From NCBI GenBank assembly GCA_001004885.1, contig LCRX01000006.1, positions 35,079 through 99,078 on the forward strand: a DNA stretch of 64,000 nucleotides, in the 5' to 3' direction. Numbering within the stretch: position 1 is the first letter of the stretch; each line of letters starts with the position of its first letter. This stretch comes from Candidatus Magasanikbacteria bacterium GW2011_GWA2_56_11. GTDB lineage: Bacteria; Patescibacteriota; Patescibacteriia; Magasanikbacterales; UBA922. The notes below the pieces were generated by a model that was given only the letters and a program-made list of their open reading frames with translations, did not search any database and was not told the origin of the DNA. This document shows positions 15,985-37,070 of this stretch, piece by piece. Both the position numbers and the translations under genes were made by a program.

Positions 15985-16012
15985 ACGAAGGTATCATTGA
16001 AACAGATAAATT

Positions 16013-16798: not shown

Positions 16799-16904
16799 AC
16801 CGAGTTCTACTTAACGGTTCAGGGACAACAGCCGGCCAAGCCCGGACGCTGTCCCTGAACGGTTGGGCAGAATAAATTATTAATTGATACCGCCGCGAGG
16901 CTAA

Positions 16905-17180
<276 letters not shown>

Positions 17181-17254
17181 ACCGACTCTGTCCCGTAGCC
17201 GTGCTAGGGGACAGGTCTCGGATAATTTCACTTTTTGCCTTTTACTAACATTCT

Positions 17255-17824: not shown

Positions 17825-17832
17825 CCATTGCT

Positions 17833-18225: not shown

Positions 18226-18239
18226 CCCGCTGTTTTACA

Positions 18240-18391
18240 GAACTCACAGCGAGCCCCCTTCGCCGAAACATAGACTGATTTTCGCGGCGCCAAAACTCGC
18301 TCTTGTGGGCTCAGACATTGGTGCCGCGAAAATCAGTCTATGTTTCGGCTCAACTTAGAGAAGAGAATTGCTAATAACTCACTATCAGTTT
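18240..18391 (+). repeat. ~150-bp intergenic repeat element, copy B, with a 27-bp perfect stem
   Basis: GCCGAAACATAGACTGATTTTCGCGGC (18273-18299) is the exact reverse complement of GCCGCGAAAATCAGTCTATGTTTCGGC (18332-18358), with a ~32-nt loop between them. The element lies between atpH and atpA. Confidence 0.85.
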
Positions 18392-18423
18392 ACACTTAAT
18401 TCAGGCAAGTTTGTTCACCGCGT

Positions 18424-19917: not shown

Positions 19918-19926
19918 TTAAATTAT

Positions 19927-20550
19927 ATGGGAGAATTTGAAAGAACTCCACGCTCCCTAGAACAAGTATTAAGTGAACGAGGTTTGACCATTGACCCTAT
20001 CGCGGCAGTTCCTGACCATATAACTATCAGACCCCTTGCTAAGGAACTACAAGTGAAAGCTAAAATTGATGTCCTCGGAATTGCTACTGTTGTTTTCTTT
20101 GAAAATCCAGAAGAGGCGGGAAAATTTATGGCAGTCTGGTGCTTCAATGGAGAAGAAACAACGAGAAAATATGGCAATAGGATTGACGTAGAAGCAGAAG
20201 TGGCGGAGTCAATTGAACTTAATTTGCGCAGTGAAAAAGAAAAAAACGAAGCTGTTGTCGAATTATATTCATTAGTTAATAGATACGGCGGCTCTATAAA
20301 GGAAATTCGTGAATTCCCCGCAGATTTAGATGGCACGGGTTCATTTTATATGAAACCTTCAGATTTTGGTCCCGAAGGCCGTACTGTTTTAAGGATGGAT
20401 TTTCCACACGGGATAACGATTTTGTCCTTGCCAGTTTCTGGTCGCGAATTGTATGTCGGTCTTTTTAAGAACGGAAAGTATCAGGGCGGAAATGGAGATT
20501 TTTCGGTTCACGAAATAGAGTCTAATATCAGAATTCTAAACGAAGGATAA
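19927..20550 (+). CDS. hypothetical protein inserted between atpA and atpG (low GC)
   Basis: 207-aa ORF with no recognisable motif. Its composition is far more AT-rich than the surrounding operon. Confidence 0.6.
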   Translation: MGEFERTPRSLEQVLSERGLTIDPIAAVPDHITIRPLAKELQVKAKIDVLGIATVVFFENPEEAGKFMAVWCFNGEETTRKYGNRIDVEAEVAESIELNLRSEKEKNEAVVELYSLVNRYGGSIKEIREFPADLDGTGSFYMKPSDFGPEGRTVLRMDFPHGITILSLPVSGRELYVGLFKNGKYQGGNGDFSVHEIESNIRILNEG

Positions 20551-20558
20551 ATGGTTAT

Positions 20559-21503
20559 ATGGCCGTCAATTCCAAAGCAATTAAACAACGCATCAAGTCG
20601 GTTAAGAACACCAAAAAAATGACCAAGGCCATGGAAATGGTCTCGGCCGCGAAGATGCGCAAAGCCGTCCAGGGTACGCTCGCCACCAGAAGCTACGCGG
20701 TCATGGCGCGCGAGCTCATGGAGGCGCTTTCGGCCGGCATCGAGGTCCAGTCTCCGCTTCTCGAGTACCGCCCGGTGGCGCGGCTTTTGGTGGTGCTTAT
20801 CAGCTCCAATCGCGGACTTTGCGGCAGCTTTAACGCGAATATCTTCAAAAAGGCCAGGCAAATTTTACGGGAGAAACAAAGCCTCGGCCGCCACCGCACG
20901 GCCCGCGGCGAAACGATCGAGCCGGCGGCCGAGATCGCCATTGACATTCTTGGCGTCGGCAAGAAGAGCGCCTGGTTCGCGCGCCAGTCCGGCTATCCGC
21001 TCGTGGCCGCGTTTGACGAGCTTTCCGAGCGGCCCACATTCGAAGAAATCATTCCGATCACGCGCTTCGTGATGGACGCTTTCAGCCAGAAAACTTATGA
21101 CAAGGTCGCCGTTTTGTTCACCGATTACAAGTCGAGTTTGGCCCAGGAAGTGAAGGTCAGACAGCTATTGCCCATTTCGGCTCACGACCTGGAAAAAATG
21201 CTTCGAGACTCGGTTGGGGATGCCGGCGATCCGCGCGGCATCGACTCCGAACATTACGTATTTGAGCCTAGCCCGTCGTTGATCGTACAGACCGTTTTAC
21301 CGCGGCTGGCGGAGGTACAGCTGTATCAGGGAATTTTGGAATCAGCGGCCAGCGAGCACAGCGCCCGCATGGTGGCGATGAAGAGCGCCACCGAAGCGGC
21401 GGGCGAGATGATTGATATGCTGACATTAGAATTCAATAAGGCGCGGCAGGCTTCCATTACTCAAGAAATCGCCGAGATTGCCGGGGGCGCGGCCGCTCTG
21501 TAA
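20559..21503 (+). CDS. atpG: F0F1 ATP synthase subunit gamma
   Basis: N-terminal MAVNSKAIKQRIKSVKNTKKMTKAMEMVSAAKMRKA is the gamma-subunit signature. Confidence 0.9.
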   Translation: MAVNSKAIKQRIKSVKNTKKMTKAMEMVSAAKMRKAVQGTLATRSYAVMARELMEALSAGIEVQSPLLEYRPVARLLVVLISSNRGLCGSFNANIFKKARQILREKQSLGRHRTARGETIEPAAEIAIDILGVGKKSAWFARQSGYPLVAAFDELSERPTFEEIIPITRFVMDAFSQKTYDKVAVLFTDYKSSLAQEVKVRQLLPISAHDLEKMLRDSVGDAGDPRGIDSEHYVFEPSPSLIVQTVLPRLAEVQLYQGILESAASEHSARMVAMKSATEAAGEMIDMLTLEFNKARQASITQEIAEIAGGAAAL

Positions 21504-21527
21504 TAATACACTTAGACACTAGAATAA

Positions 21528-22922
<1,395 letters not shown>

Positions 22923-22930
22923 TCTTTCCT

Positions 22931-23269
22931 ATGAGTAGAGACCGAGAATCGAGGCCAATAAGCCTGATGAGAGAAATGTTGCGTCAGGATTACGCCCAGG
23001 GGGTTCGTATTCTGGCGCGCGACGTCCTGGCGGTGCAGAAAGAACCGGATTGGTCCGGCTATGTCGCCGAGGTGATTGAACATGCCCGGACTGGCGAAAC
23101 ACGCAATCCGGAAGTAGACGCCATTTTGGCGCGGATACTCATGAAAAAACATTATTTAACTCTCGAAGAGATAGTAGCGATATCCGATGACGTCGCCCGA
23201 GAGTGCCTTGTTCTCCTCGGGGGAGATATAGCCGATCATTATGCAGAGTCCGGACAAGCTACAATTTAA
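22931..23269 (+). CDS. hypothetical protein (112 aa) between atpD and atpC
   Basis: Its only support is that it fills a 318-bp gap inside the operon; there is no Shine-Dalgarno and no recognisable motif. Confidence 0.3.
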   Translation: MSRDRESRPISLMREMLRQDYAQGVRILARDVLAVQKEPDWSGYVAEVIEHARTGETRNPEVDAILARILMKKHYLTLEEIVAISDDVARECLVLLGGDIADHYAESGQATI

Positions 23270-23669
23270 GCTCGTTACTCCCGATGGCATCGTCTACGAC
23301 GACGCCATCGACCAGGTCAGCATCCCGACAGCCGCGGGCGAGATTACGGTTTTGCCGCGTCATATTCCGCTCGTTTCGATTATCAGCGCGGGAGAACTAA
23401 GGCTAAAAAAGGATGGCGCCGAGATACCGCTCGTAGTCTCCGGCGGTGTTCTGGAGATTCGTCCGGGCAGCCAACTTTACGTTCTGGCCGATACCGCGGA
23501 GAGAGCCGAGCATATCGACATGGAACGCGCGGAAGCGGCCCGGGCGCGCGCCGAAGAGCTTATGAAACAGAAGGAACAGATGGCCGATGTCGACTTTGCC
23601 CGCTTGCAGGCCAAAATGGAAAAAGAACTGGCCCGCCTGCGCGTCGGCAGAAAGTACCGGAAAATTTAG
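23241..23669 (+). CDS. atpC: F0F1 ATP synthase subunit epsilon
   Basis: N-terminal beta-sandwich (LVTPDGIVYDDAIDQVSIPTAAGEITVLP) plus a C-terminal helical hairpin. Confidence 0.85.
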   Translation: MQSPDKLQFKLVTPDGIVYDDAIDQVSIPTAAGEITVLPRHIPLVSIISAGELRLKKDGAEIPLVVSGGVLEIRPGSQLYVLADTAERAEHIDMERAEAARARAEELMKQKEQMADVDFARLQAKMEKELARLRVGRKYRKI

Positions 23670-25857: not shown

Positions 25858-26502
25858 ATGCGCATCACCAAGTTTGGTCATTCTTGTCTGCTCGTCGAAG
25901 AAGACGAGGCCCGCATACTTATTGACCCGGGGAGCTGGACTAGCGCCCAGAATGGGCTCAAGAATCTTGACGTTATTCTGATTACCCATGAACATAATGA
26001 CCATTGCGATCTGGCTTCTATCCAGGCTTTGCTCGCGGGCAATCCCGGCGTAGTTATACTTACCAATAGCGGCGTCAAGAAAAAACTCGCGGCCGCCGGA
26101 ATCGCGGGCCAGATTCTCGAAGACGGTGCCAGCACCCAAGTGAAAGGCGTCAAGATTCTAGCCTGCGGCCGGGATCATGCCGTGATCTACGAAACTATTC
26201 CGCCGGTCGCGAATACTGGTTATCTTATTGCCGAGCGTTTTTTCGCGCCCGGAGATACGGTAACCGCAATCCCGCCGCAACCGGTGGAAATTTTGGCGCT
26301 TCCTGTCGTGGCTCCCTGGACCAAGCTGGCGGAATGTCTCGATTACGCCCGGAAAATCAAGCCCCAGGTTTGTTTTCCGGTTCACGACGGTATGGCCAAA
26401 GAGGGCGCGTTCGACAAACATCCCCAGAACATCCTGCCCGGCTTTGGCATCGAGGTAGTCATACCGCAGCCGGGAGTGCCTATGGACTTTCAGCCATTTT
26501 AG
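25858..26502 (+). CDS. MBL-fold metallo-hydrolase
   Basis: HEHNDHCD metal-binding motif. Confidence 0.7.
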   Translation: MRITKFGHSCLLVEEDEARILIDPGSWTSAQNGLKNLDVILITHEHNDHCDLASIQALLAGNPGVVILTNSGVKKKLAAAGIAGQILEDGASTQVKGVKILACGRDHAVIYETIPPVANTGYLIAERFFAPGDTVTAIPPQPVEILALPVVAPWTKLAECLDYARKIKPQVCFPVHDGMAKEGAFDKHPQNILPGFGIEVVIPQPGVPMDFQPF

Positions 26503-26552
26503 GATTATGCTTTGTCTAGCTAATTTTCATTTTTGGCCTTAACTCAAATCCT

Positions 26553-27743
26553 ATGGTTCAAGGTGAAACTCGACCCCAAGATATAACCAGGGAGACAGTC
26601 GAAACAGGAGAGAGGTTGCACCCGGTCGTGGCGGATGTATTCGCCGACCTGGAAGGAGAAAACGGAAGAAATTATGAAGGCGATAATTTGGAGACGATTA
26701 GACGCCGAACTCGGGAAACAAACGGGCGTAAGCCCTTTGACGAAGAAAAAGTATTGGTCCAAGAATTAACCAGCCAGTTATGGCCCGTGGATAAGCTAGA
26801 TCCCCATGTGGTCAAGCGGGCCAGAACGATCCTCAGCGAAAAAGCCAACAATCATCTTGACGATCGGGTGGGCCGGGCAGAGTTTAAAATTGAACGAGAT
26901 ATCTCGGATGAAGAAGCTATCGAAATGGCCCGCGCGATGCAGATGCGGTTTTTTGCCGAGCGGGCCGTGAAGGGCGCTACCTACCCGGGTTATGCTGCCA
27001 GGGCGCTGGAGCCGCTTGCCGGCTGCAGGGTGACGGAGATGGATGGCGATCGAAAAATGATCGATACCCGCAAACCTGATGAACCTACCCCCCACCGGAT
27101 CGTCGCCGGGCCGGAGCAATTTCGAGTCGCCGACGAACAAGTGGTCGACGCCTACAATACTTTTAGGGCTTTTTTGGATCTCAAAGGAACTAAATTAACC
27201 CTGGACCAGGCGGACGCGGCTGAATTCAAAAGGCGTTTTCCGAATTTGAGGCTAAACAGCGAAGGCCTGGCTTATCTTGCCGGCGGCAACGATCAGCAAC
27301 GCCGCGATAATCTGCAAACGGCCGAGCGGGATTACCTGATGGTAAGAGAAAAACTGGCTGAACGCCTGCAGAGTGAACTTGGCGGCAGCGAGCCCTTGAC
27401 GGAAAATCAGCTGCGCAGACGCCTCAAAGAGGTGGAAGCTGAAAACAGGCAGCTGCATGGAGATTTAGAGTTAGAACAGGACAACAGGCGGTCGGCCGAA
27501 CAGCGCGCCGAAGCAGCCGAGCGTAATGTCGGAATTGCTGAAGTGGAAGAAAAAGGATTGCGGCTCGCGGCCACGGAGGCCAAGAAGAAGGGCGAGGCTA
27601 ATGTTGAGGCCTTGAAAAGGGATGTAAACGCCAAGCTGGCGGAGATACAAGCGCTCCTAGCCGGGGCCAGGTTCGGCAATAAGGGTGAGGTGATAGAAGG
27701 AGCCCAGGGGGCCATAACTGAATTGTTAAAGTCCCTTAAGTAA
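26553..27743 (+). CDS. hypothetical charged protein with a C-terminal coiled coil
   Basis: 396 aa with no TM segment. The last ~120 aa are heptad-like and rich in E, R, K, A and L. Confidence 0.5.
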   Translation: MVQGETRPQDITRETVETGERLHPVVADVFADLEGENGRNYEGDNLETIRRRTRETNGRKPFDEEKVLVQELTSQLWPVDKLDPHVVKRARTILSEKANNHLDDRVGRAEFKIERDISDEEAIEMARAMQMRFFAERAVKGATYPGYAARALEPLAGCRVTEMDGDRKMIDTRKPDEPTPHRIVAGPEQFRVADEQVVDAYNTFRAFLDLKGTKLTLDQADAAEFKRRFPNLRLNSEGLAYLAGGNDQQRRDNLQTAERDYLMVREKLAERLQSELGGSEPLTENQLRRRLKEVEAENRQLHGDLELEQDNRRSAEQRAEAAERNVGIAEVEEKGLRLAATEAKKKGEANVEALKRDVNAKLAEIQALLAGARFGNKGEVIEGAQGAITELLKSLK

Positions 27744-27840
27744 AAGAGATTTTCGTGTCTGCCTTTGGCCATATATTTTTTTCGGGGCATGAGATAGCTG
27801 CCGCGAAGTATGTCTCCTGTTTTGGGGATATGACGTATAA

Positions 27841-27869
27841 TTGACAGTCGGTGAACTGCTGAGTATTAT
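27841..27869 (+). promoter_or_regulatory. near-consensus sigma70 promoter for the complex-I-like operon
   Basis: TTGACA, a 17-bp spacer, then TATTAT, 44 nt upstream of the first ATG. Confidence 0.6.
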
Positions 27870-27912
27870 ATAGCCAACGGGATTATATTTTTGCCGCCGC
27901 CGGCGCGGATAT

Positions 27913-28434
27913 ATGCTTAAGCTGTACGCCAAGATATTCGCCACTCCCCAGACAGCGATCGGCCTGCCGGAACTCAAGGACGGGGAGGTCGAAATCGTTG
28001 GAAAAAAAATCGCGGCCAAAGTGGCCAAGCTGTTTCGCGGCTCGCTCGCTATCCGCGAGGTGGACGCCGGCTCGACCAACGCCTGCGAGCAGGAGCTGAC
28101 CGCGCTCGGGAATTCTTATTACGACGTCGAGAGATTCGGCATTCATTTCGTCGCCTCGCCCCGGCACGCCGACATGCTTATGGTTACCGGACCCGTGTCG
28201 AGAAACATGAAAGAGGCGCTCATCCGGACGTATGAGGCCACGCCAGACCCGAAAATCGTGGTGGCGGTCGGCGACGACGCCATAGACGGCGGGATTTTTA
28301 AGGGCTCCTATGCCGTCCTCGACGGGGTCCACAACGTCATTCCGGTTGATTTCCGGATTCCCGGCGATCCGCCGTCGCCCAAAACGATTTTGATCCATTT
28401 GCTTAAAATTCTCGAGATCATCGATTCCCGCTAA
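27913..28434 (+). CDS. NuoB / hydrogenase small-subunit-like protein lacking the Fe-S cluster cysteines
   Basis: The NuoB fold motifs are present but the ligands are replaced. GSTNACEQE stands in for CCxxE, VAVGDDAIDGG for GxCAxxGG, and IPGDPPSP for GCPPRP. The whole protein has a single Cys. Confidence 0.75.
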   Translation: MLKLYAKIFATPQTAIGLPELKDGEVEIVGKKIAAKVAKLFRGSLAIREVDAGSTNACEQELTALGNSYYDVERFGIHFVASPRHADMLMVTGPVSRNMKEALIRTYEATPDPKIVVAVGDDAIDGGIFKGSYAVLDGVHNVIPVDFRIPGDPPSPKTILIHLLKILEIIDSR

Positions 28435-28459
28435 GCTGTCCGGCCGGCAGCCTTCATTT

Positions 28460-30505
28460 ATGTTTACCGCGGTCAGCGCCCAATCAAGTTTTTTCCTCGC
28501 CCTCCTGTTTTTGGGGCTGGGATCGCTGGGTTCTGCTTGCCTGTGGAAAAAAGACGCGGCCGCCAATTGGTGGGGCAACCTCTGCGCGATAACGGCGTCT
28601 GTGTTTGGGCTGCTGTCGGCCATCCGCGTTCTTCTTGGCGGGGCCGCGTTTTCTTTGGCGGCCGATTCCCCGCTGGGGGCGCTGTCATTTTCCTTTACGG
28701 TTGATAAACTGTCCGCTTTTTTCATTTTTGTTATCTCGCTCATCGCCCTGCCGGCCTCCATTTATGGCCTGGGTTACGTGAAGCATTACTACGGCAGATA
28801 TTCTCCCGGCGTCCTCGGTTTTTTCTACAATCTTTTTCTGGCCGGCCTGTTTTTGGTCGTGAGCGCCGATAATGCCCTTTTTTTCCTGACAGTTTGGGAA
28901 ATCATGTCCCTGGCTTCGTACTTTTTGGTCATTTTCGAACACCGCGAGCCGGATAATATCAGCGCCGGCACGCGTTACTTTATCATGACCCACGCCGGGA
29001 CCGCTTGTATCATACTGGCGTTTCTTGTCTTGTATCGTTTTACGGGATCGTTTGAGTTTGACGTCATCAGGGAAAATTTCGCCGCTGTTCCGGCCTACGC
29101 AAAGAATATTGTTTTTTTGCTCACGCTCGCCGGTTTTGGCACCAAGGCCGGCATTATACCGCTGCACATTTGGCTGCCAAGCGCGCACCCGGCGGCGCCG
29201 ACGCACGTGTCCGCGCTCATGTCCGGGGTCATGATAAAAACCGGCATTTACATGTTTATCCGGATTTTGATTGATTTCTCGCCTGGCGCGCCGTTGTGGT
29301 GGGGGATAGCGGTTCTCCTGATTGGAGCGGCGTCATCGCTTTTCGGCGTTTTGTACGCCCTCACGGAGCATGACATTAAGAAACTGTTGGCTTATCACAG
29401 TATCGAGAATATCGGCATCATTCTTTTGGGCCTGGGCAGCGCGCTTGTTTTTTGGGCTGCCGGAGCGGAATCACTCGCCATGCTCGGTCTCATCGCGGCC
29501 TTGTTCCACACCCTCAATCACGCCGTTTTCAAGGCGCTGCTGTTTTTGGGCGCCGGCTCGGTTATCTCCCAGACGCGCACCCGCAACATGGAGGAGTACG
29601 GCGGCCTGATACGGACTATGCCTTATACCGCGGCTTTGTTTCTGACCGGTTCTCTGGCCATATCGGCTTTGCCGCCTTTCAATGGTTTTGCGAGCGAATG
29701 GCTGACTTTTCAGTCGCTTTTTAGCGGGTTCGGGTCATTCGGCCGTTCGGTGGCCGGGGTATTCGCGCTCTCGGCCGGAGCGCTGGCCTTTACTGGCGGC
29801 CTGGCCGCGGCCTGTTTTGTCAAAGCATTCGGCGCGACCTTCTTGGCGCGGCCGCGCAGTGTCGAAGCCGCGCGCTCCAGAGAGTCGGCGCCCTCCATGG
29901 TGCTGGGCATGGGCGTGCTTGCCCTGCTAACGCTCGTCATTGGAATTTTTTCCGGAGTCGTTTCCCGCGTGCTCTCGGTCGTGGTCGCCGACCGGCCGGG
30001 ATTCTCTACGGTGCCGGTTCCTGTTTCCGTCCCGGCCGCGAGCCTGAGCCTGGGCAGCGGTTTCGCCGCGATGTCTTTGCCGCTCGTCTTTGTGTCCCTG
30101 GCCGCCGTGAGCGCGCTGGTGGCTTTTTTGACGTATCTCGCGACGGCCGGCCGGCGCGTAAAAATTGGCCGCACCTGGGATTGCGGTACCGACCTCACCC
30201 CCCGCATGGAGATAACCGCGACCGGGTTTTCCCGTTCTCTCATTTCGATATTTCGGGGAATATTAAAGCCGAGCAAACAGACTACCATCGAGTATCGCGA
30301 CGCGGATAGCCGGTTTTTCCCCCAGACCAGATCGGTTAAACTGGAGATTAAAGATGTTTACAGCGCTTATTTTTACCGTCCGGTCGAGCGCCTGACAATG
30401 GCTCTGGCGGCGCAGATAAAAAAAATCCAGTGCGGCAATGTAAACGCCTATATCGTTTACTTGTTTGCCGCCCTGATAGCGCTTTTAGTCTGGGCTGTGA
30501 TCTAA
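28460..30505 (+). CDS. HyfB / NuoL / MrpA-like antiporter-type membrane subunit
   Basis: 681 aa and polytopic, with FLTVWEIMSLASYFLV and WLPSAHPAAPTHVSAL motifs. Confidence 0.8.
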   Translation: MFTAVSAQSSFFLALLFLGLGSLGSACLWKKDAAANWWGNLCAITASVFGLLSAIRVLLGGAAFSLAADSPLGALSFSFTVDKLSAFFIFVISLIALPASIYGLGYVKHYYGRYSPGVLGFFYNLFLAGLFLVVSADNALFFLTVWEIMSLASYFLVIFEHREPDNISAGTRYFIMTHAGTACIILAFLVLYRFTGSFEFDVIRENFAAVPAYAKNIVFLLTLAGFGTKAGIIPLHIWLPSAHPAAPTHVSALMSGVMIKTGIYMFIRILIDFSPGAPLWWGIAVLLIGAASSLFGVLYALTEHDIKKLLAYHSIENIGIILLGLGSALVFWAAGAESLAMLGLIAALFHTLNHAVFKALLFLGAGSVISQTRTRNMEEYGGLIRTMPYTAALFLTGSLAISALPPFNGFASEWLTFQSLFSGFGSFGRSVAGVFALSAGALAFTGGLAAACFVKAFGATFLARPRSVEAARSRESAPSMVLGMGVLALLTLVIGIFSGVVSRVLSVVVADRPGFSTVPVPVSVPAASLSLGSGFAAMSLPLVFVSLAAVSALVAFLTYLATAGRRVKIGRTWDCGTDLTPRMEITATGFSRSLISIFRGILKPSKQTTIEYRDADSRFFPQTRSVKLEIKDVYSAYFYRPVERLTMALAAQIKKIQCGNVNAYIVYLFAALIALLVWAVI

Positions 30506-30509
30506 TTTT

Positions 30510-31439
30510 ATGTCATTGTTCGGTTTGTGGTTTTTGCAACTCCTCCTTGTGCCGGCCTTGTCGCCGCTGTTTATCGGCATTGTCCGCCGGGTTAAGGCCA
30601 GGCTGCAGAATCGGGTGGGCGCGAGGGTAACCCAGCCGTACCGCGATATTCTGAAACTTTTTCGCAAGGACGAGGTCGTAAGCGCCGATGCTTCCTGGAT
30701 CTTTAGCAGCGCGCCGTATCTTATTTTTGCCGTCTCCATTCTTTTGGGAGCCAGTATCCCGCTTCTATCCGCGCACCTCACGGCTACCGTGCTCGGCGAT
30801 CTTCTGACGGTCGTCTACGTTATTGCCCTCAGCACGTTCTTTTTGGCTTTAGCCGGCATGGATACCGGCAACGCTTTCGGCGGATTCGGATCAAGTCGCG
30901 AAATGACCGTGGCCGCTTTGACCGAGGGCGGGCTTATTTTTTCGCTCCTGGCCCTGGCGTTCACGGCCCATTCGAGCAATCTGTTTGTCATCGCCGGGGC
31001 TATTTCCAGCTTGTCGCTTCTCGCTTTTACCCCGATTATTTTGGCTTTTGTGGCGTTTGTTATCGCGCTTCTCGCCGAAACCGGCCGGTTTCCCTTTGAC
31101 AATCCGGCCACCCATCTCGAGCTGACCATGATCCACGAAGCCATGATCCTCGAATATTCCGGCAAGAAACTGGCGCTCATGGAGTGGGCGGCGGCCAACA
31201 AGTTCATGCTGTTTCTCGCGCTCGGAGCGAACCTGTTTTTTCCGTGGGGGCTCGCCGCTTCGGCTTCGCCCCCGGCGCTTATTTTGGCCCTGGGAGCCTT
31301 AGTTTTCAAGCTGTTAGTCTTTTGCGTTTTGGTCGCCCTCCTGGAGTCGAGCCTGGCCAAATTTCGGTTTTTCCGCCTGCCTGATCTTTTGTTCATGTCG
31401 TTCATATTAAGCCTGATCGCGCTTTCGCTCATCGTGTAG
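30510..31439 (+). CDS. HyfC / HycD / NuoH-like membrane subunit
   Basis: 309 aa with eight TM segments and a NuoH-like loop pattern. Confidence 0.7.
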   Translation: MSLFGLWFLQLLLVPALSPLFIGIVRRVKARLQNRVGARVTQPYRDILKLFRKDEVVSADASWIFSSAPYLIFAVSILLGASIPLLSAHLTATVLGDLLTVVYVIALSTFFLALAGMDTGNAFGGFGSSREMTVAALTEGGLIFSLLALAFTAHSSNLFVIAGAISSLSLLAFTPIILAFVAFVIALLAETGRFPFDNPATHLELTMIHEAMILEYSGKKLALMEWAAANKFMLFLALGANLFFPWGLAASASPPALILALGALVFKLLVFCVLVALLESSLAKFRFFRLPDLLFMSFILSLIALSLIV

Positions 31440-31443
31440 GACT

Positions 31444-32103
31444 ATGGATTTTTTTAGCGCCCAATTTCTCTTTTTCGTCCAGACGCTGCTGTTTGCCTCG
31501 GTTATTTTCATGCACCTGTCCAAAAAAAGCGCCTCCGTTATTTTTCTTTATCAGGTTCAATCGCTTATAGTCGCCTGCCTGCTTCTCGGTTCGGCCTTAG
31601 CCGAGTCAGCGATTTTTCCGCTTTTCGTGGCCGTCGTGGTGTGCGCGGTAAAAGTAGTCATCGCGCCGCATTTCTTTCGGCGGCTCACCCGGGAGCTGCA
31701 GCTCAAATTTTCCGCCAGCACCTATTTGAGCGGTCCCTTGACGCTTATCATTCTCGCGGCCTTGACGGCGTTTACCTACTCGCACTTTTTTGCCCCTCTT
31801 TCCACTCTCAACGCGTCAAACGCCCGCGCTCTTCTTCTCGCCGCGGCGATGATGCTGGCCGCCTTGTTTTTGATCGTCAACCGCAAGGGCGCCCTCTCCC
31901 AAATGATCGGCATTTTGTCCTTGGAAAACGCCATTGTCGCTTTTGCTTTTCTTTCCGGGCTCGAACAATCGCCGGCTCTGGAGCTCGGCGTCCTGTTCGA
32001 CATTTTAATGTGGATAATCATCGCCACGGTGTTCGCGTCCATGGTTTACCGGCAATTCGGTTCTCTCGACGTGACGGCGATGAACTCTCTCAAAGAAGAA
32101 TAA
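31444..32103 (+). CDS. HyfE / NuoK-like membrane subunit
   Basis: 219 aa with a LSLENAIVAFAFL motif. Confidence 0.65.
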   Translation: MDFFSAQFLFFVQTLLFASVIFMHLSKKSASVIFLYQVQSLIVACLLLGSALAESAIFPLFVAVVVCAVKVVIAPHFFRRLTRELQLKFSASTYLSGPLTLIILAALTAFTYSHFFAPLSTLNASNARALLLAAAMMLAALFLIVNRKGALSQMIGILSLENAIVAFAFLSGLEQSPALELGVLFDILMWIIIATVFASMVYRQFGSLDVTAMNSLKEE

Positions 32104-32107
32104 ATCT

Positions 32108-33544
32108 ATGCTGCTCATCATTCTTCTCTGCGTTCCGTTCGCCGCTTCCGTCCTGTCTTGGCTGGTCAAAAAAAGGACTCTCGTTTTGGAATCTTTGGCG
32201 GCGGGCGCCTCGACAATCGAACTGGCCGCGGCGCTCTCTTTGGCGGGTTCGGTGGCGAAAAGCGGGCCGTATTCCCTGACCGATAGTTTTTCGGTTGACC
32301 CGCTGGGAGCGGTCGTCATCTTGATTTTGGCCATTATTGGCGTGGTGGCGGCGTGGTATTCGGCCGGCTACCTGCGGGCCGAAGTGGAGAAGAGCATCAT
32401 CGGTTTTCACCGGGTGCGGCAATATTTTGTTCTGCTGCATCTTTTTATTTTTGCCATGTTCTTTGCCGTCGCCACGACCAGCCCCACCCTCATGTGGATC
32501 GCCATCGAAGCCACGACGCTCTCCACCGCCTTTCTTATCAGTTTTTACAATAATGCCTCGGCCACGGAAGCGGCCTGGAAATATTTGCTTGTCAACTCGG
32601 TCGGATTACTTCTCGGATTTTTTGGCACGCTTTTGTTTTTGTCCCCGGCCGAATCAGCCGGACTCACTGATTGGAATTCGCTCTTTGCCGCCGCGGCGGG
32701 CTTTGATCCGTTTATCGCGAAGATAGCCTTCGTTTTTGTATTCATCGGATACGGCACCAAGGTCGGATGGGTGCCTATGCACACCTGGCGGCCGGACGCC
32801 TACAGCAAGGCGCCGATTCCGGTGGTGGCGCTGTTTTCGGGCTCGCTCCTGAGCGTGGCTTTTTTGGCCGTGCTCCGTTTCAAGCTGATCGCGGACGCCA
32901 GCCTGGGCGGAGATTTTTCCGCCAACATGCTCATTGGCTTCGGACTCTCTTCCATCGTCGTGGCCGCTTTCAGTATGCTCGGACAAAAAAATTATAAGCG
33001 GTTGCTCGCCTATTCGAGCATCAAGCACGCGGGTATAATCGCCCTGGGATTTGGTTTCGGGGGCGCCGCGGCCGGAGCCGCTCTCCTGCATCTTATCTAT
33101 CACGCCCTGGCCAAGTCAGCTCTGTTTTTGTCGGCGGGAAATATTTTTTTGAAATACAGTTCGACCAAGGTGGAGAACGTGCGCGGGGTGTTGTCGGCTC
33201 TGCCGGTTACCGGCGTCCTGTTTCTCGCCGGATTTGTGGCCATAATCGGCCTGCCGCCGTTCGGTTTGTTTTTTACCGAATTATCCATTCTAGCGGCCGG
33301 AATTCAGTATCATCCGGCGGTATCCGTGATTGTCCTCTTGGCGCTCGCCTTGGGGTTCATCGGCTTTCTGCGCCATGCGGTTGCCATGATGTTTGGCGAA
33401 CGCGAAAAAAGGATAGCGCCGGGCGAAGCCGGAGTTTGGACCATCGTTCCCATTATTATTCTTTTGGCCATTCTAGCGGCCGCGAGTTGGTATCTGCCGG
33501 TGTCGTTTCGGTCGTTATTGGAATCTGCCGTCTTAGCCTATTAA
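32108..33544 (+). CDS. HyfF / NuoM / NuoN-like antiporter-type membrane subunit
   Basis: 478 aa with the proton-conducting-membrane-transporter pattern (WVPMHTWRPDAYSKAP). Confidence 0.75.
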   Translation: MLLIILLCVPFAASVLSWLVKKRTLVLESLAAGASTIELAAALSLAGSVAKSGPYSLTDSFSVDPLGAVVILILAIIGVVAAWYSAGYLRAEVEKSIIGFHRVRQYFVLLHLFIFAMFFAVATTSPTLMWIAIEATTLSTAFLISFYNNASATEAAWKYLLVNSVGLLLGFFGTLLFLSPAESAGLTDWNSLFAAAAGFDPFIAKIAFVFVFIGYGTKVGWVPMHTWRPDAYSKAPIPVVALFSGSLLSVAFLAVLRFKLIADASLGGDFSANMLIGFGLSSIVVAAFSMLGQKNYKRLLAYSSIKHAGIIALGFGFGGAAAGAALLHLIYHALAKSALFLSAGNIFLKYSSTKVENVRGVLSALPVTGVLFLAGFVAIIGLPPFGLFFTELSILAAGIQYHPAVSVIVLLALALGFIGFLRHAVAMMFGEREKRIAPGEAGVWTIVPIIILLAILAAASWYLPVSFRSLLESAVLAY

Positions 33545-33548
33545 GTCT

Positions 33549-35120
33549 ATGCTTTCCAGCTCCTCTTTTGCCGCCTATATTCCTCCTGGGTTTAAGCCCA
33601 AATTCGAAGGTAACCTGGCCACCGGCGCGGTTTCTGTTTCCGAGATCGCCGGGGTGTGCCACGACCTGTACTTTACGCGTGGGCTCGAATTAAAAACTAT
33701 CACGGCTACCGACGAGCGGAACAGGGGCGGAGGTTTTAGAATTTTCTACGTATTCGGCGTGCCCAAACAAAATTTGTTTATCATCCCGTACATCGTTCTG
33801 GCCGACACCGCGGAATTTCCTTCTCTGACCAAAGATATCCACGAAGCTTCGAGCTACGAACGGCGGATTATGACGTTTTTCGGCCTCAGCCCGGCCGGCC
33901 ACCCGCATCCGCGGCCGCTTATCCTCCATGAAAATTGGCCGGCGGACGTTTTTCCGCTGCGCCAGGATTTTAATTGGCAAGAGCGTCCGGCCGCCGCGCG
34001 CGGCAATTACGAATTTTACCGGGTGGAAGGGGAGGGGATTTACGAAATTCCGGTGGGTCCGGTGCACGCGGGCATTATCGAGCCTGGCCACTTTCGTTTT
34101 AGCGTCGCCGGAGAGGAAATTATGCTGCTTGAGGCCAAACTTGGTTACAAACACAAGGGAATTGAAAAACTTTTCGAGAACCTACCGCTCGCGAGCACAT
34201 TGCGTCTGGCCGAGAGGATTTCCGGGGACACGTCGTTTACCCACGCTCTGGCTTTTTGTCAGGCGATTGAACAGCTGACTGAATTGCCGGTTCCCAGGCG
34301 CGCCGCCTACCTCCGCGTCATTTTTTCCGAGCTGGAACGGCTTGCCAACCATGCCAACGACATCGGTTTTATCATGCTCGATACGGGTTATAGTTTTGGC
34401 GGCAGCCAAGGGGCGCGGCTGCGTGAAGTTATCATGCGGTGGAACGAACGCCTAACCGGCAGCCGCTTCCTTCGCGGCGTTAATGTTTTCGGCGGCGTGG
34501 CCAAGGATATTACTCCGGAAGCGGGTAACGAACTCGAGGCCGCGCTCCAGGCGTGGCAGCGCGACTTTGACCAGGTGATCGCCATTGCCGAGGATAGCCA
34601 CTCTTTGCTCAATCGTCTCGAGGACACCGGCAAACTGGATTATCAGCTAGCCGTTGATCACGGCATTGTAGGCGTGGCCGGGCGCGCCGTTGGACTCAAG
34701 AAGGACGCGCGGCTCGATTATCCCTACGCGGCTTACGCTGAGCTTCCCCTAGAGATCGCGGTCGAGAAAGACGGCGACGTCCGGTCGAGATTTTATGTCC
34801 GCGTCAAAGAAGCGCGCTCTTCGGTCGCGCTCATTTTGGCGGCCTTGAAGAACCTGCCTAGGGGTGAGTGTTCGGTCGGGGAACAACGCGTTAAATTAGC
34901 CAGGAACCGCTGCGCTGTCGGCCTGGCCGAAGGCTGGCGAGGCGAGATTGTCTATTTTGTTATGACCGGGGATACAGGCGATCTCGCGAGAGTTGACGTT
35001 CGCGATCCGTCATTCGTCAACTGGGCCGTGCTCGGCCATGCCGGCAGAGGCAATGTCGTGCCGGATTTTCCCCTGATCAACAAGAGTTTCAATTTGTCCT
35101 ACTCGGGTAACGACTTGTAG
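33549..35120 (+). CDS. fused NuoC-NuoD / HycE-like large subunit lacking the [NiFe] cysteine ligands
   Basis: NuoC-like N-terminus (ERRIMTFFGLSPAGHPHPRPL), then NuoD-like GPVHAGIIEPGHFRF in place of RxCGxCxxxH, and C-terminal DPSFVNWAVLGH in place of DPCxxCxxH. Confidence 0.75.
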   Translation: MLSSSSFAAYIPPGFKPKFEGNLATGAVSVSEIAGVCHDLYFTRGLELKTITATDERNRGGGFRIFYVFGVPKQNLFIIPYIVLADTAEFPSLTKDIHEASSYERRIMTFFGLSPAGHPHPRPLILHENWPADVFPLRQDFNWQERPAAARGNYEFYRVEGEGIYEIPVGPVHAGIIEPGHFRFSVAGEEIMLLEAKLGYKHKGIEKLFENLPLASTLRLAERISGDTSFTHALAFCQAIEQLTELPVPRRAAYLRVIFSELERLANHANDIGFIMLDTGYSFGGSQGARLREVIMRWNERLTGSRFLRGVNVFGGVAKDITPEAGNELEAALQAWQRDFDQVIAIAEDSHSLLNRLEDTGKLDYQLAVDHGIVGVAGRAVGLKKDARLDYPYAAYAELPLEIAVEKDGDVRSRFYVRVKEARSSVALILAALKNLPRGECSVGEQRVKLARNRCAVGLAEGWRGEIVYFVMTGDTGDLARVDVRDPSFVNWAVLGHAGRGNVVPDFPLINKSFNLSYSGNDL

Positions 35121-35161
35121 CACTGGTTGTCTGTCCGACCCGGCAATCCAGGCCCGAAGCC

Positions 35162-35190
35162 TTGACTAAACTCAAAAATTCCTTTATACT
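35162..35190 (+). promoter_or_regulatory. near-consensus promoter upstream of typA, followed by a hairpin and T-tract leader
   Basis: TTGACT, a 17-bp spacer, then TATACT. A CCGAGT-TCTCAA-ACTCGG plus TTTT hairpin follows at 35192-35216. Confidence 0.5.
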
Positions 35191-35276
35191 AGCCGAGTTC
35201 TCAAACTCGGTTTTAAGATCACAAGTTCGTCTTTCCTGTCCGGTTGAAGCTCCGGCGGGCTAGCCGCCCAGATTAT

Positions 35277-37070
35277 ATGGAAATTAGAAATATAGCCATT
35301 ATCGCCCACGTTGACCACGGCAAGACCACCTTGACCGATGCTTTGATGCGCCAAACCGGCATGGTTACGCAGGAGGGCGTCAGCATGGATTCGAATGCTC
35401 TCGAGAGGGAGCGGGGCATTACGATTTACTCCAAAAACGCTTCGCTTTTCTACAAAGACACCAAGATCAATATCGTCGACACCCCGGGCCACGCCGATTT
35501 CGGCTCCGAGGTGGAGCGCGTGCTGCGTTCTATAGACTCGGTGCTCCTCATAGTTGACGCCCAGGAAGGACCGATGCCGCAGACCAAGTTTGTCCTGAAA
35601 AAGTCGCTGGAGCTGGGCCTCAAGCCGATTGTGGTGCTCAATAAAATCGACAAACCCGGAGCCAATCCGCAGCTTGCGCATGACCAGGTGCTCGAACTCT
35701 TTATGGACCTGGGCGCGAGCGACGACCAGCTGGATTTTACCACCGTCTACGCCATCGGGCGCCAGGGGGTGGCCAAACTGCGCCTGGAGGAAGAGGCAGC
35801 GGATTTGACGCCGCTTTTGGACACCATCCTCAAGCTGGTTCCGCCGGCTCCGCATGACATCGAGGCCATGTTCCGCATGCAGCCGTTCAACCTTGGTTAT
35901 GACAATTACGTCGGCCGCCTGGCTATCGGCCGCATCTACGAAGGCAAGATCAGAGTGGGAGACAAGGTAGTCGTGAAAAAACCGACCGGCGAAACGCGGC
36001 CGGGCGTGATTACGAAACTTTTTGCCTTCAAGGGCATGGAACGCATTGAAGCCCCGGAGGTGTTCGCCGGCGACATTGCCATGATCGCCGGGGTGCCAGA
36101 TATCGACATCGGAGAAACAATCTGTGTCGACGGCTCCCAGGAGCCGCTGCCGGCGATCAAAGTAGACGAGCCGACGATTTCTCTTAACTTCATGGTCAAC
36201 AATTCTCCCTTTGCCGGGCGCGAAGGCAAGTTCGTGACCAACCGCCAGCTGAAGGAGCGCCTCGATCGCGAGCTGGAGGTAAACGTAGGCTTGAAAATAG
36301 ACTTCTCCGCGTCAGACCACTACAAGGTCTTCGGCCGCGGCGAGCTGCACGTGGCCATTCTCCTTGAGAATATGCGCCGCGAGGGGTATGAGGTCCAGGT
36401 TTCTCAGCCCCAGGTGATCATCAAAGAGGAAAACGGCGGAAAGCTGGAGCCTTTTGAAGAAGTTATTGTAGATTTGCCGGAGAATCTGGCCGGTACTGTC
36501 ATCGAAAAACTGGGGAAACGCAAAGGTCTCATGATGGACATGAAACAAAAAGACGGGCAAAGCCGGCTGATATTTGAAATACCAACCCGAGGACTCCTCG
36601 GTTACCGCGGCCAGTTTATCATGGACACCAGGGGCGAGGGGATTATGACCAGCCGTGTTATCGGTTTTCGCGCCTACGTGGGGGAAATTGAGAAGCGGGA
36701 TGTCGGTTCCATGGTTTCCATGGAGGCCGGCAAGGCCCTAGGCTATTCCCTTTTCAACCTTCAGGATCGAGGGACCCTCTATATCGGCCCCACGACTGAA
36801 GTTTACGAGGGTATGGTTATCGGCAACGTCTCCAAGGGGCAGGACATGACCGTTAATCCCATTAAAGGCAAGAAATTGACCAATATGCGCGCCTCCGGTT
36901 CGGACGACGCCATTCTTCTGACGCCTCCCATGGAGATCACTCTCGAGCGCGGTCTCGAGGTGATGGCCGAGGACGAGTATTTGGAGATTACCCCCAAGAG
37001 CATCCGCTTGCGAAAGCAATTTCTGAACGAGTCGGACCGGGTACGGGCGGCGCGAAAAGCCGCGCAATAA
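35277..37070 (+). CDS. typA: translational GTPase TypA/BipA
   Basis: N-terminal [18 protein letters not shown]1 motif, DTPGH, NKIDK, and an EF-G-like domain order. Confidence 0.9.

What the first reader, a model, noticed from the sequence alone, without database searches (positions are those of the whole stretch)
33549..35120. Hydrogenase large-subunit homolog with DP-S-xx-N in place of DPCxxC, and a NuoD-like N-terminal motif
The L1 motif position (RxCGxCxxxH) reads VGPVHAGIIEPGHF, which is NuoD-like. The L2 position reads DPSFVNWAVLGH, so both Cys are replaced (C to S and C to N) while the flanking D-P and H remain. An N-terminal NuoC-like domain is fused, as in HycE. This is the signature of a post-hydrogenase complex that still sits with Hyf-type membrane subunits.
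Basis: seen in the sequence. Interest (0 to 1): 0.55.

Follow-up and report, generated by a model that had tools for sequence, protein, structure and literature searches.

The report
Cofactor-free hydrogenase-like membrane complex (Ehr)
This gene encodes the large subunit of a known "ex-hydrogenase" membrane complex (Ehr) in a tiny CPR bacterium; in this branch its partner subunit has also lost its iron-sulfur site, so the complex probably moves ions without any redox chemistry.

Summary
ORF 33549-35120 is real. It encodes a 523-aa HycE-type fusion of a NuoC-like and a NuoD-like domain. It is the last gene of a six-gene operon (27913-35120): NuoB-like small subunit, HyfB, HyfC, HyfE, HyfF, large subunit.

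VGPVHAGIIEPGHF is the conserved N-terminal hairpin and is closer to HycE than to NuoD. DPSFVNW is the conserved R-x-P-S-F-x-N motif. The true L1 is RISGDTSFTH and the true L2 is the C-terminal FNLSYSGNDL. Neither has a ligand Cys, so the conclusion that this is not a hydrogenase holds.

This is the known Ehr family. Jaffe et al. 2020 already reported a Cys-less Ehr clade in CPR bacteria, and the window matches a Candidatus Magasanikbacteria genome.

The papers I could read do not mention the following. In this clade the small subunit has also lost three of four [4Fe-4S] ligands (T-C-D-D in 108 of 121 homologues). It has no fused ferredoxin domain, and there is no HycF/NuoI gene. Even so, the small subunit is the most conserved subunit, and the charged residues of the membrane ion channels are intact. 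In 5 of 18 places the cassette lies beside ATP-synthase genes.

Best reading: a redox-free ion translocator of the antiporter type. The function is untested.

The parts
27841..27869 (+). Promoter-like site, TTGACA-17-TATTAT, 44 nt upstream of the first gene of the operon
   Evidence: 11 of 12 consensus matches, the best + strand site in 26400-35500. A second site at 35162-35190 precedes the next gene (BipA). This is a consensus match only.
27913..28434 (+). Small subunit (NuoB/HycG-like, 173 aa). Former [4Fe-4S] ligand positions read T55, C58, D122, D152. There is one Cys in the whole protein and no ferredoxin domain.
   Evidence: Pfam Oxidored_q6, E=2.2e-25. HycG 7z0s_G E=5e-30 and MbhJ E=7e-29, with ligand columns aligned. 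Ligand pattern TCDD in 108 of 121 homologues, the rest SCDD, DCDD or TEDD. Single Cys.
28069..28095 (+). Small-subunit site GSTNACEQE, replacing the GSCNGCE (CxxC) ligand motif
28267..28293 (+). Small-subunit site VGDDAIDGG, replacing G-x-C-x-x-x-GG (third ligand, C to D)
   Evidence: D122 is invariant in alignment A2
28357..28380 (+). Small-subunit site IPGDPPSP, replacing GCPP (fourth ligand, C to D)
   Evidence: D152 is invariant in alignment A2
28460..30505 (+). HyfB-like (NuoL/MrpA-type) antiporter-like subunit, 681 aa, with the conserved charged residues: WE147, K229, HSIE316, K358, E413
   Evidence: NCBIfam NF005086 'hydrogenase 4 subunit B', 677 bits against a cutoff of 667. Pfam Proton_antipo_M, E=7.7e-60. 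Residue conservation across the clade.
30510..31439 (+). HyfC/HycD-like (NuoH-type) subunit, 309 aa, with a conserved acidic loop PFDNPATHLELTMIHEAMILEYSG (aa 195-218)
   Evidence: HycD 7z0s_D, E=1.9e-46. Pfam NADHdh, E=1.3e-44. The loop is nearly invariant in the clade.
31444..32103 (+). HyfE-like membrane subunit, 219 aa; the C-terminal part resembles NuoK
   Evidence: NCBIfam NF008556 'hydrogenase 4 membrane subunit', E=7.8e-15, below cutoff. Pfam Oxidored_q2, E=1.9e-4, below cutoff. Conserved LSLEN motif.
32108..33544 (+). HyfF-like (NuoM/N/MrpD-type) antiporter-like subunit, 478 aa, with E134, K218, K336 and E391 conserved
   Evidence: NCBIfam HyfF models, E=2.9e-118. MbsH, NdhF and MbhH alignments. 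Conservation across the clade.
33549..35120 (+). Large subunit (the finding): a 523-aa HycE-type fusion of NuoC-like and NuoD-like domains with no Ni-Fe ligands
   Evidence: HycE 7z0s_E, E=6.6e-78 over aa 25-522; Nqo4 1e-42; MbhL 4e-40. AF2 model pLDDT 80; best fold match 7z0s_E, TM 0.83. 100% identical to a Candidatus Magasanikbacteria protein.
33687..33986 (+). NuoC-like domain (aa 47-146) of the large subunit
   Evidence: Pfam Complex1_30kDa, E=4.4e-15
34053..34094 (+). E178 matches the conserved Glu of the HycE and MbhL hairpin.
   Evidence: alignments. HAGIIEPGHF is invariant across Ehr and sister hydrogenases.
34215..34244 (+). True L1 position: RISGDTSFTH (C to S225, C to T228; D227 is new and invariant)
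35004..35039 (+).
   Evidence: Nqo4 VRAPSFVNL, HycE CRAATYANW
35088..35117 (+). True L2 position: FNLSYSGNDL at the C-terminus (C to S517, C to G520). There is no C-terminal maturation extension.
   Evidence: N515, L516, S517, Y518, G520 and D522 are invariant in alignment A1

Best explanation
Genes 27913-35120 encode a six-subunit Ehr-type complex. It descends from Hyf/group-4f-like membrane-bound hydrogenases and has lost every recognisable redox site:
- the Ni-Fe ligands of the large subunit;
- three of the four [4Fe-4S] ligands of the NuoB-like small subunit;
- any HycF/NuoI-type ferredoxin subunit or domain.
It also lacks the quinone ligands of NuoD. All of this is shown by the sequence.

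The membrane arm consists of HyfC (NuoH-like), HyfE, HyfF and HyfB. It keeps the Lys and Glu residues that carry ions in complex I, MBH and Mrp. That the complex still moves ions is an inference from this.

The most likely mode is redox-independent ion translocation, as a secondary Mrp-like cation/proton exchanger or gradient converter. In a fermentative CPR cell it would work together with the H+-type F1Fo ATPase. This step is inferred.

The strongly conserved, cofactor-less peripheral arm probably serves as a cytoplasmic cap or gate on the HyfC cavity. The acidic residues that replaced the cysteines (small subunit D122 and D152, large subunit D227), together with E178 and H232, could form a proton- or cation-binding site. 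This last step is speculative.
For: Identity and ligand loss:
- Searches cover the large subunit.
- Searches cover the small subunit, which has a single Cys in total. The pattern TCDD, SCDD, DCDD or TEDD occurs in 121 of 121 homologues.
- No ferredoxin gene or domain is present, whereas other Ehr small subunits carry an N-terminal 2x[4Fe-4S] domain.
- The quinone ligands are absent: I177 and G226.

Evidence that it is not decaying:
- The window large subunit is 59-72% identical to each of its 119 nearest cluster representatives.
- The small subunit is the most conserved subunit of the clade: 67% mean pairwise identity against 50-64% for the others. Cluster-bearing Ehr groups show the same tendency.
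- The ex-active-site residues are invariant.
- The six-gene order is conserved in every locus.
- A good promoter-like site lies upstream.

Ion machinery:
- HyfB, HyfF and HyfC charged residues are conserved as in cluster-bearing relatives and true hydrogenases.

Link to the ion gradient:
- atpG-atpD-atpC lie directly upstream on the same strand in L001, L013 and L054.
- In L004 the cassette sits between atpD and atpC.
- In the window the atp operon (15604-23669) ends 4.2 kb upstream.
- That is 5 of 18 cluster-less places, against 0 of 66 other loci.

No redox partner gene recurs beside the cassette.
Against: - No experiment exists for any Ehr complex. The papers I read call the function unknown (PMC10432482, PMC10284858).
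- Mrp antiporters work without a peripheral arm, so an antiporter model does not explain why the arm is the best conserved part.
- ATP-synthase adjacency is absent in 13 of 18 places, and several of the positive cases are related CPR lineages.
- The invariant pocket (S225, D227, H232, N515, S517, D522) also occurs in Ehr complexes that keep their Fe-S cluster. This hints at a specific ligand or reaction that I could not identify.
- Ion specificity is unknown.
- A non-Cys-ligated cofactor cannot be excluded from sequence alone.
Confidence: 0.45

Rival explanations
1. Ion flow is coupled to a non-redox reaction or to ligand binding at the former Ni-Fe pocket. Examples would be CO2/bicarbonate interconversion or another proton-consuming reaction, by analogy with CupA on cyanobacterial NDH-1MS or with DabA/DabB. 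The peripheral arm would be a catalytic head rather than a cap.
For: - The ex-active-site residues are invariant across the whole Ehr family, with or without the small-subunit cluster: SGD...H, NLSYSGND and E178.
- The peripheral subunits are at least as conserved as the membrane subunits.
- Loss of the cluster, possibly on two separate occasions (clades A and B each have 100% bootstrap, but their union only 37%), suggests that the family's conserved function never needed electron transfer.
Against: - No candidate substrate emerges.
- No carbonic-anhydrase-like or other catalytic motif was recognised by Pfam or NCBIfam.
- No metabolic gene is consistently linked to the cassette.
Confidence: 0.2
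2. It is still a redox enzyme. Electrons would come from a docking partner (for example the FDH-Ehr idea of Matheus Carnevali et al. 2019, or ferredoxin) and pass through non-canonical ligands to an acceptor.
For: - An FDH-Ehr complex has been proposed for other Ehr complexes (PMC6349859).
- Geobacter Ehr subunits are more abundant on formate (PMC7894505).
- One Cys (C58) and two Asp remain at the old cluster site.
Against: - Only one Cys exists in the whole small subunit.
- Clade B has no Cys at any ligand column.
- There is no ferredoxin domain or HycF/NuoI gene.
- No Ni-Fe or quinone ligands remain.
- No fdh, nuoEF or other redox gene lies beside the cassette in any of 18 places.
Confidence: 0.07
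3. It is a sensor, regulator or scaffold, for example a device that responds to proton-motive force or pH, or a partner of the ATP synthase, rather than a bulk transporter.
For: - Recurrent adjacency to atp genes.
- The conserved peripheral arm has no catalytic cofactor.
Against: - Two complete antiporter-like subunits with all channel residues intact are an expensive way to build a sensor.
- No signalling domain is present.
Confidence: 0.1
4. It is a decaying relic of a hydrogenase operon with no function.
For: All cofactor sites have been lost.
Against: - All six ORFs are intact in every locus with enough sequence.
- Large subunits are 59-72% identical and small subunits 73-93% identical to the window protein across more than 100 clusters from many lineages.
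- The replacement residues themselves are invariant.
Confidence: 0.03

Closest known systems
[quoted passage not shown] Defined by Marreiros et al. 2013 (as cited in PMC6349859 and PMC7304191); examples are Geobacter EhrA-S, comammox Nitrospira and AOA. The CPR Ehr clade is described by Jaffe et al. 2020 (PMC7304191).
   Same: - Large subunit of group 4 type without the L1 and L2 cysteines.
- The same SGD...H and NLSYSGNDL replacements.
- The same set of HyfB, HyfC, HyfE and HyfF membrane subunits plus a NuoB-like subunit.
- The window's clade corresponds to the monophyletic Cys-less CPR clade already reported.
   Different: - All 62 other Ehr or sister-hydrogenase loci where a small subunit was scored keep at least 3 of the 4 Cys of its [4Fe-4S] site; 61 keep all four, and L034 reads PCCC.
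- Many of them fuse a 2x[4Fe-4S] ferredoxin domain to the small subunit.
- The window's clade has T-C-D-D at the ligand positions and no such domain.
- The clade is not restricted to CPR. One member lies on a 3.08 Mb contig, and others are labelled Firestonebacteria, Fibrobacteria, Endomicrobiales and so on.
E. coli formate hydrogenlyase and hydrogenase-4 (HycE/HyfG, HycG/HyfI, HycD/HyfC, HycC/HyfB, HyfE, HyfF; PDB 7Z0S)
   Same: - Best sequence and fold match for the large subunit (E=6.6e-78, TM 0.83), the small subunit (5e-30) and the NuoH-like subunit (1.9e-46).
- The same NuoC fusion.
- HyfB passes the NCBIfam equivalog cutoff.
   Different: - No Ni-Fe ligands and no small-subunit cluster.
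- No HycF or HycB ferredoxins and no FdhF.
- No C-terminal maturation peptide.
Group 4f-type [NiFe]-hydrogenases. These are the nearest true hydrogenases found here (Thermincola, Desulfotomaculum and Ectobacillus loci L023, L060 and L073). Ehr is said to be close to group 4f in PMC10284858.
   Same: - 39-47% identity.
- The same operon content.
- The shared HAGIIEPGHF and PDFPLINKSF motifs.
   Different: They keep CGxC and ELCYSC in the large subunit and all four Cys in the small subunit.
Mrp-type multisubunit cation/proton antiporters
   Same: - Redox-independent.
- Built around MrpA/MrpD-type subunits with the same conserved Glu and Lys pattern.
- This is the best functional analogy.
   Different: - Mrp has no NuoB, NuoCD or NuoH-like module, and it has MrpB, E, F and G.
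- The window complex has a full, conserved peripheral arm and a NuoH-like subunit.
Respiratory complex I (NuoB, NuoCD, NuoH, NuoK, NuoL/M/N)
   Same: Homologous core subunits and the same fold.
   Different: - No N2 cluster ligands.
- No quinone ligands: H38 aligns with I177 and Y87 with G226.
- No NuoI, NuoA, NuoJ or NuoEFG genes in the operon.

Membership tests
Ehr complexes | Large subunit homologous to the large subunits of group 4 membrane-bound [NiFe]-hydrogenases | tested here: met
   HycE 7z0s_E, E=6.6e-78 over the full length. Foldseek best hit 7z0s_E, TM 0.83.
Ehr complexes | The Ni-Fe-binding cysteines of L1 and L2 are absent | tested here: met
   Positions read S225, T228, S517 and G520 in correctly aligned columns.
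Ehr complexes | Encoded together with NuoB-like, NuoH-like and Mrp/NuoL-M-N-like antiporter subunits | tested here: met
   The six-gene order is conserved in related loci.
Ehr complexes | Groups with Cys-less Ehr large subunits rather than inside true hydrogenases | tested here: met
   NJ tree: the window's clade has 100% bootstrap among Ehr sequences. Of the 133 nearest 50%-identity representatives with all four ligand columns aligned, 101 have no ligand Cys and 22 have all four. This is neighbour-joining only; no ML tree with curated group 4a-4i references was possible.
Ehr complexes | Small subunit keeps the four Cys of the proximal [4Fe-4S] cluster. This is typical of the family, though I could not confirm that it is a formal criterion. 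| tested here: not met
   The ligand positions read T55, C58, D122 and D152. 121 of 121 homologues lack at least three of the ligands.
Group 4 [NiFe]-hydrogenase (FHL/Hyf/4f) | L1 RxCGxCxxxH and L2 (D/E)xCxxCxx(H/R) cysteines in the large subunit | tested here: not met
Group 4 [NiFe]-hydrogenase (FHL/Hyf/4f) | Small subunit with four Cys ligands for the proximal [4Fe-4S] cluster | tested here: not met
Group 4 [NiFe]-hydrogenase (FHL/Hyf/4f) | A HycF/NuoI-type 2x[4Fe-4S] subunit or domain that relays electrons | tested here: not met
   None is present in the operon. The small subunit has no N-terminal ferredoxin domain, unlike those of other Ehr complexes.
Group 4 [NiFe]-hydrogenase (FHL/Hyf/4f) | A C-terminal extension of the large subunit that is removed during maturation | tested here: not met
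   The protein ends one residue after the column aligned with HycE residue 548. The HycE chain continues to 581.
Group 4 [NiFe]-hydrogenase (FHL/Hyf/4f) | hyp maturation genes present in the genome | not tested
   Only 64 kb is available. None was seen among the roughly 35 ORFs scanned.
Respiratory complex I | Quinone head-group ligands of NuoD (T. thermophilus Nqo4 H38 and Y87) | tested here: not met
   They align with I177 and G226 in an ungapped stretch.
Respiratory complex I | Ligands of cluster N2 in NuoB, and the NuoI, NuoA and NuoJ subunits | tested here: not met
Mrp-type antiporter | MrpA/MrpD-type subunits with the conserved TM5 Glu, TM7 Lys and TM12 Lys/Glu | tested here: met
   HyfB E147, K229 and E413; HyfF E134, K218 and E391. 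All are conserved across the clade.
Mrp-type antiporter | Small subunits MrpB, C, E, F and G, and no peripheral arm | tested here: not met
   There is only a weak NuoK/MrpC-like stretch in HyfE (E=1.9e-4, below cutoff), and a full NuoB plus NuoCD arm is present.
Mrp-type antiporter | Cation/proton exchange activity | not testable with these tools
   Needs proteoliposome assays or complementation assays.

The most novel reading that the evidence does not exclude
This clade would be the first complex-I/hydrogenase-type machine in which the whole 'Q-module' (NuoB, NuoCD and NuoH homologues) is kept under strong selection with no redox cofactor at all. If so, the conformational or electrostatic coupling device of the complex I superfamily can be driven, or gated, by something other than electron transfer. 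Candidates are proton or cation binding at acidic sites that replaced the Fe-S and Ni-Fe ligands, or an unknown non-redox ligand. It would also be a main ion-gradient device of CPR bacteria, working alongside their ATP synthase.
Probability: 0.4. Interest if true: 0.7.

Novelty: new variant of a known kind. Interest (0 to 1): 0.45.

Why it matters
- **Annotation.** Public sources name these genes 'Ni,Fe-hydrogenase III large/small subunit', 'NADH-quinone oxidoreductase subunit C' or 'subunit B family'. NCBIfam passes HyfB as 'hydrogenase 4 subunit B'. Metabolic reconstructions of CPR bacteria could therefore wrongly credit them with H2 metabolism or a complex I.
- **CPR bioenergetics.** CPR bacteria have an ATP synthase but no respiratory chain. 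A complex without cofactors cannot be a primary redox pump. This narrows the possible ways these cells build or use ion gradients.
- **Ehr function.** The Ehr family is large: 101 of the 133 nearest full-length representatives, and at least 591 hits in one-genome-per-species contigs. It includes nitrifiers and Acidobacteria, and its function is unknown. A natural variant that dispenses with the last Fe-S cluster while keeping the large-subunit pocket argues that the conserved job is not electron transfer. It also offers a simple six-subunit target for biochemistry and cryo-EM.

Tried and rejected
Done by alignment to Nqo4; both ligands are absent. The complex I-like reading is rejected.
- **Search for a conserved partner gene** (fdh, nuoEF, ferredoxin, carbonic anhydrase) beside the cassette in 18 places. 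None recurs apart from ATP-synthase genes in 5 places.
- **AlphaFold model of the small subunit.** It came out at pLDDT 43.6 from a shallow alignment. It is unusable and was not fold-searched.
- **AlphaFold model of the large subunit.** It is good overall (pLDDT 80). It is below 50 exactly at aa 157-203 and aa 504-523, the hairpin and the former L2, so it says nothing about the pocket.
- **First tree attempt.** It timed out. No ML software was available, so only NJ with bootstrap was run.
- **Literature.** Marreiros et al. 2013 could not be read. Searches for papers describing a cluster-less Ehr small subunit or an Ehr structure found nothing. One query was swamped by 'electronic health records'.
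- **tRNA scan of the window.** Empty.
- **Decaying pseudogene cluster.** Considered and rejected on conservation.
Full report
**1. What is at the coordinates**

ORF 33549-35120 (+) is a clean 523-aa reading frame. Pfam finds a NuoC-like domain (Complex1_30kDa, aa 47-146, E=4.4e-15) followed by a NuoD-like domain (Complex1_49kDa, E=7.2e-42).

Among solved structures the best match is E. coli formate hydrogenlyase subunit HycE (7z0s_E, E=6.6e-78, aligned over aa 25-522). It is well ahead of T. thermophilus Nqo4 (1e-42), P. furiosus MbhL (4e-40) and MbsL (2e-27). An AlphaFold2 model (pLDDT 80, pTM 0.84) also finds 7z0s_E as the closest fold (TM 0.83, 32% identity), followed by E. coli NuoCD.

The protein is 100% identical to a protein of a Candidatus Magasanikbacteria genome, that is, CPR/Patescibacteria.

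**2.

In the HycE alignment:
- VGPVHAGIIEPGHF (aa 169-182) pairs with HycE IGPLHVTSDEPGHF. This is the conserved N-terminal hairpin, and it is more HycE-like than NuoD-like.
- The real L1 (HycE RVCGICGFAH) pairs with RISGDTSFTH (aa 223-232).
- DPSFVNW (aa 486-492) pairs with HycE RAATYANW and Nqo4 RAPSFVNL, a motif common to hydrogenases and NuoD.
- The real L2 (HycE LDPCYSCTD) pairs with the extreme C-terminus FNLSYSGND (aa 514-522).

Closely related true hydrogenases recovered from genomes give the same columns without gaps: ERICGACSLSH and FELCYSCFDR.

All four ligand cysteines are therefore gone (S, T, S, G), and there is no C-terminal maturation extension. The quinone ligands of NuoD (Nqo4 H38 and Y87) correspond to I177 and G226, so a complex I-like quinone site is not present either.

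**3. The operon**

The gene is the last of six tightly packed genes (gaps of 4-25 nt):
- a NuoB/HycG-like small subunit (27913-28434);
- HyfB (28460-30505), which passes the NCBIfam equivalog cutoff;
- HyfC/HycD (30510-31439; HycD E=1.9e-46);
- HyfE (31444-32103);
- HyfF (32108-33544);
- the large subunit.

A strong promoter-like site (TTGACA-17-TATTAT, 27841-27869) precedes the first gene. Another precedes the next gene, BipA. There is no HycF/NuoI, HycB, FdhF or NuoEFG gene.

**4. It belongs to a known family**

Cys-less relatives of group 4 hydrogenases encoded with antiporter-like subunits are the Ehr complexes. This definition is attributed to Marreiros et al. 2013 in PMC6349859.

Jaffe et al. 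2020 (PMC7304191, text and Fig. S6b) already reported that CPR bacteria carry a monophyletic Ehr clade lacking the L1 and L2 cysteines, and that it 'likely cannot interact with H2'. Reviews and genome papers still call the function of Ehr unknown.

The family is large:
- A pattern scan of one genome per species found at least 591 relatives.
- Of the 133 nearest 50%-identity representatives with all four ligand columns aligned, 101 have no ligand Cys, 22 have all four and 10 are intermediate.

As flagged, the finding is therefore a correct recognition of something already described.

**5.

I extracted the operons from 86 related loci.

In all 62 other Ehr and sister-hydrogenase loci where a small subunit was scored, it keeps at least three of the four [4Fe-4S] ligands (GSCNGCE, G-x-C-A, GCPP). 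The one deviation is L034, which reads PCCC. In Firmicutes, Acidobacteria, Verrucomicrobia and Thaumarchaeota the small subunit also carries an N-terminal 2x[4Fe-4S] ferredoxin-like domain, for example CNRCGKCMPRCP...CIFCLLCQEICP.

In the window the ligand positions read T55, C58, D122 and D152 (GSTNACEQE, VGDDAIDGG, IPGDPPSP). The alignments to HycG and MbhJ confirm this. The whole 173-aa protein contains a single cysteine, and there is no ferredoxin domain.

Among 121 database homologues (73-93% identical to the window protein) the pattern is TCDD in 108, SCDD in 8, DCDD in 3 and TEDD in 2.

In an NJ tree of large subunits:
- The cluster-less loci form clade A, which contains the window (100/100 bootstraps).
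- A second cluster-less clade B (L054, L057, L080; pattern S/T/N-E-G-D) also has 100/100 support.
- Their union has only 37/100 support, so the cluster may have been lost twice.

Clade A is not purely CPR. One member sits on a 3.08 Mb contig, and others are labelled Firestonebacteria, Fibrobacteria, Endomicrobiales, Thermoleophilia or Bdellovibrionales. MAG labels can be wrong, but a 3 Mb contig cannot be a CPR genome.

**6. It is not decaying**

- Within clade A the small subunit is the most conserved subunit, at 67% mean pairwise identity. The others are HyfC 64%, large subunit 59%, HyfB 58%, HyfF 54% and HyfE 50%. Cluster-bearing Ehr groups show much the same tendency.
- The replacement residues are themselves invariant: D122 and D152 in the small subunit; S225, G226, D227, S229, F230, H232, N515, L516, S517, Y518, G520 and D522 in the large subunit.
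- The charged residues that define ion pathways in complex I, MBH and Mrp are conserved as in cluster-bearing relatives and true hydrogenases:
  - HyfB: E147, K229, HSIE, K358, E413.
  - HyfF: E134, K218, K336, E391.
  - HyfC: the acidic loop PFDNPATHLELTMIHEAMILEYSG.
- E178 in the hairpin, matching the conserved Glu of the HycE and MbhL hairpin, is invariant.

**7. Genomic context**

The six-gene cassette stands alone among changing housekeeping neighbours. No redox partner gene recurs.

The one recurrent neighbour is the F1Fo ATP synthase:
- In the window a complete atp operon (15604-23669) ends 4.2 kb upstream.
- atpG-atpD-atpC lie directly upstream on the same strand in L001, L013 and L054.
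- In L004 the cassette lies between atpD and atpC.

That is 5 of 18 cluster-less places, in at least three lineages, against 0 of 66 other loci. The c subunit (16950-17180) has an A-E-A ion site without the Gln/Ser-Thr Na+ signature. From my own knowledge of c-ring motifs this suggests H+ coupling.

**8. Mechanism**

*Shown:* there is no Ni-Fe site, no Fe-S site, no quinone site and no electron-input module. The ion-channel residues are intact, and the peripheral arm is under strong constraint.

*Inferred:* the complex translocates ions without redox chemistry. The closest functional analogy is an Mrp-type cation/proton antiporter or gradient converter. In a fermentative CPR cell this would work with an ATP-driven H+ F1Fo.

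*Speculative:* the peripheral arm acts as a gate or cation- or proton-binding cap on the HyfC cavity, through the acidic residues that replaced the cysteines.

*Main rival:* the invariant former Ni-Fe pocket, which is shared with cluster-bearing Ehr complexes, binds or converts an unknown non-redox ligand whose turnover is coupled to ion flow, in the manner of CupA or DAB.

A cryptic redox role, a sensor role and a relic are less likely. Evidence for and against each is listed under the rival explanations.

**9. Verdict**

- The interpretation as a post-hydrogenase Ehr complex is right but already published, including for CPR bacteria.
- The added observation is a clade whose small subunit has also lost its Fe-S ligands and ferredoxin domain, yet is the most conserved subunit, and which recurs beside atp genes. 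It makes this a new variant of a known kind. I found no paper that mentions it, but the founding Ehr paper could not be read.
- Interest is moderate. It bears on the unknown function of a very widespread family and on how CPR bacteria handle ion gradients. Nothing here is experimentally tested.

Noticed in passing
window 15604-23669: A complete F1Fo ATP synthase operon (atpI, B, E, F, H, A, G, D, C). Two ORFs without any Pfam match are inserted in it: 19927-20550 (207 aa, between alpha and gamma) and 22931-23269 (112 aa, between beta and epsilon, overlapping the start of atpC).
   Followed up: partly
window 16950-17180: The ATP synthase c subunit has the ion-binding helix ...[12 protein letters not shown]. 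It lacks the Gln and Ser/Thr residues typical of Na+-binding c rings, so it is probably H+-coupled. This judgement rests on my own knowledge of the motif and was not tested.
   Followed up: no
window 26553-27743: A 396-aa Glu/Arg/Ala-rich protein, probably coiled-coil, with no Pfam or NCBIfam match. It lies directly upstream of the Ehr operon and is not conserved beside the cassette in other loci.
   Followed up: partly
window 790-3699: The leucyl-tRNA synthetase (969 aa) appears to carry an inserted NUDIX domain (aa 426-517, E=7.5e-11) after the editing domain. This is an unusual architecture.
   Followed up: no
window 1-55027: All of the roughly 52 long ORFs from 14 to 55027 are on the + strand. 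The strand switches only after about 55.5 kb. No tRNA gene was found in the 64 kb. GC content is 55%.
   Followed up: no
L004 2941-20723 (Candidatus Daviesbacteria, 1.1 Mb contig): The atp operon is split. atpA, atpG and atpD (16274-20723, - strand) are separated from atpC (2941-3369, - strand) by about 13 kb, and this stretch contains the whole Ehr cassette on the opposite strand.
   Followed up: partly
L046 and L065 (Nitrospirota), L026 (Methanomassiliicoccus), L007 (Fibrobacteria): Some genomes carry two hydrogenase-like or Ehr-like clusters side by side. L046 and L065 have tandem Ehr cassettes. L026 has an Ehr cassette next to an Fpo/Nuo-like cluster. L007 has a second HyfBCEF set about 5 kb downstream.
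   Followed up: no
L031 small subunit (Terracidiphilus) compared with L020 (Desulfitobacteriia): The N-terminal ferredoxin-like domain fused to Ehr small subunits seems partly degenerate in Acidobacteria: only one CxxCxxC-type motif remains (CIYCGECAEA). In Firmicutes both motifs are complete. This hints at stepwise loss of Fe-S sites across the Ehr family.
   Followed up: no
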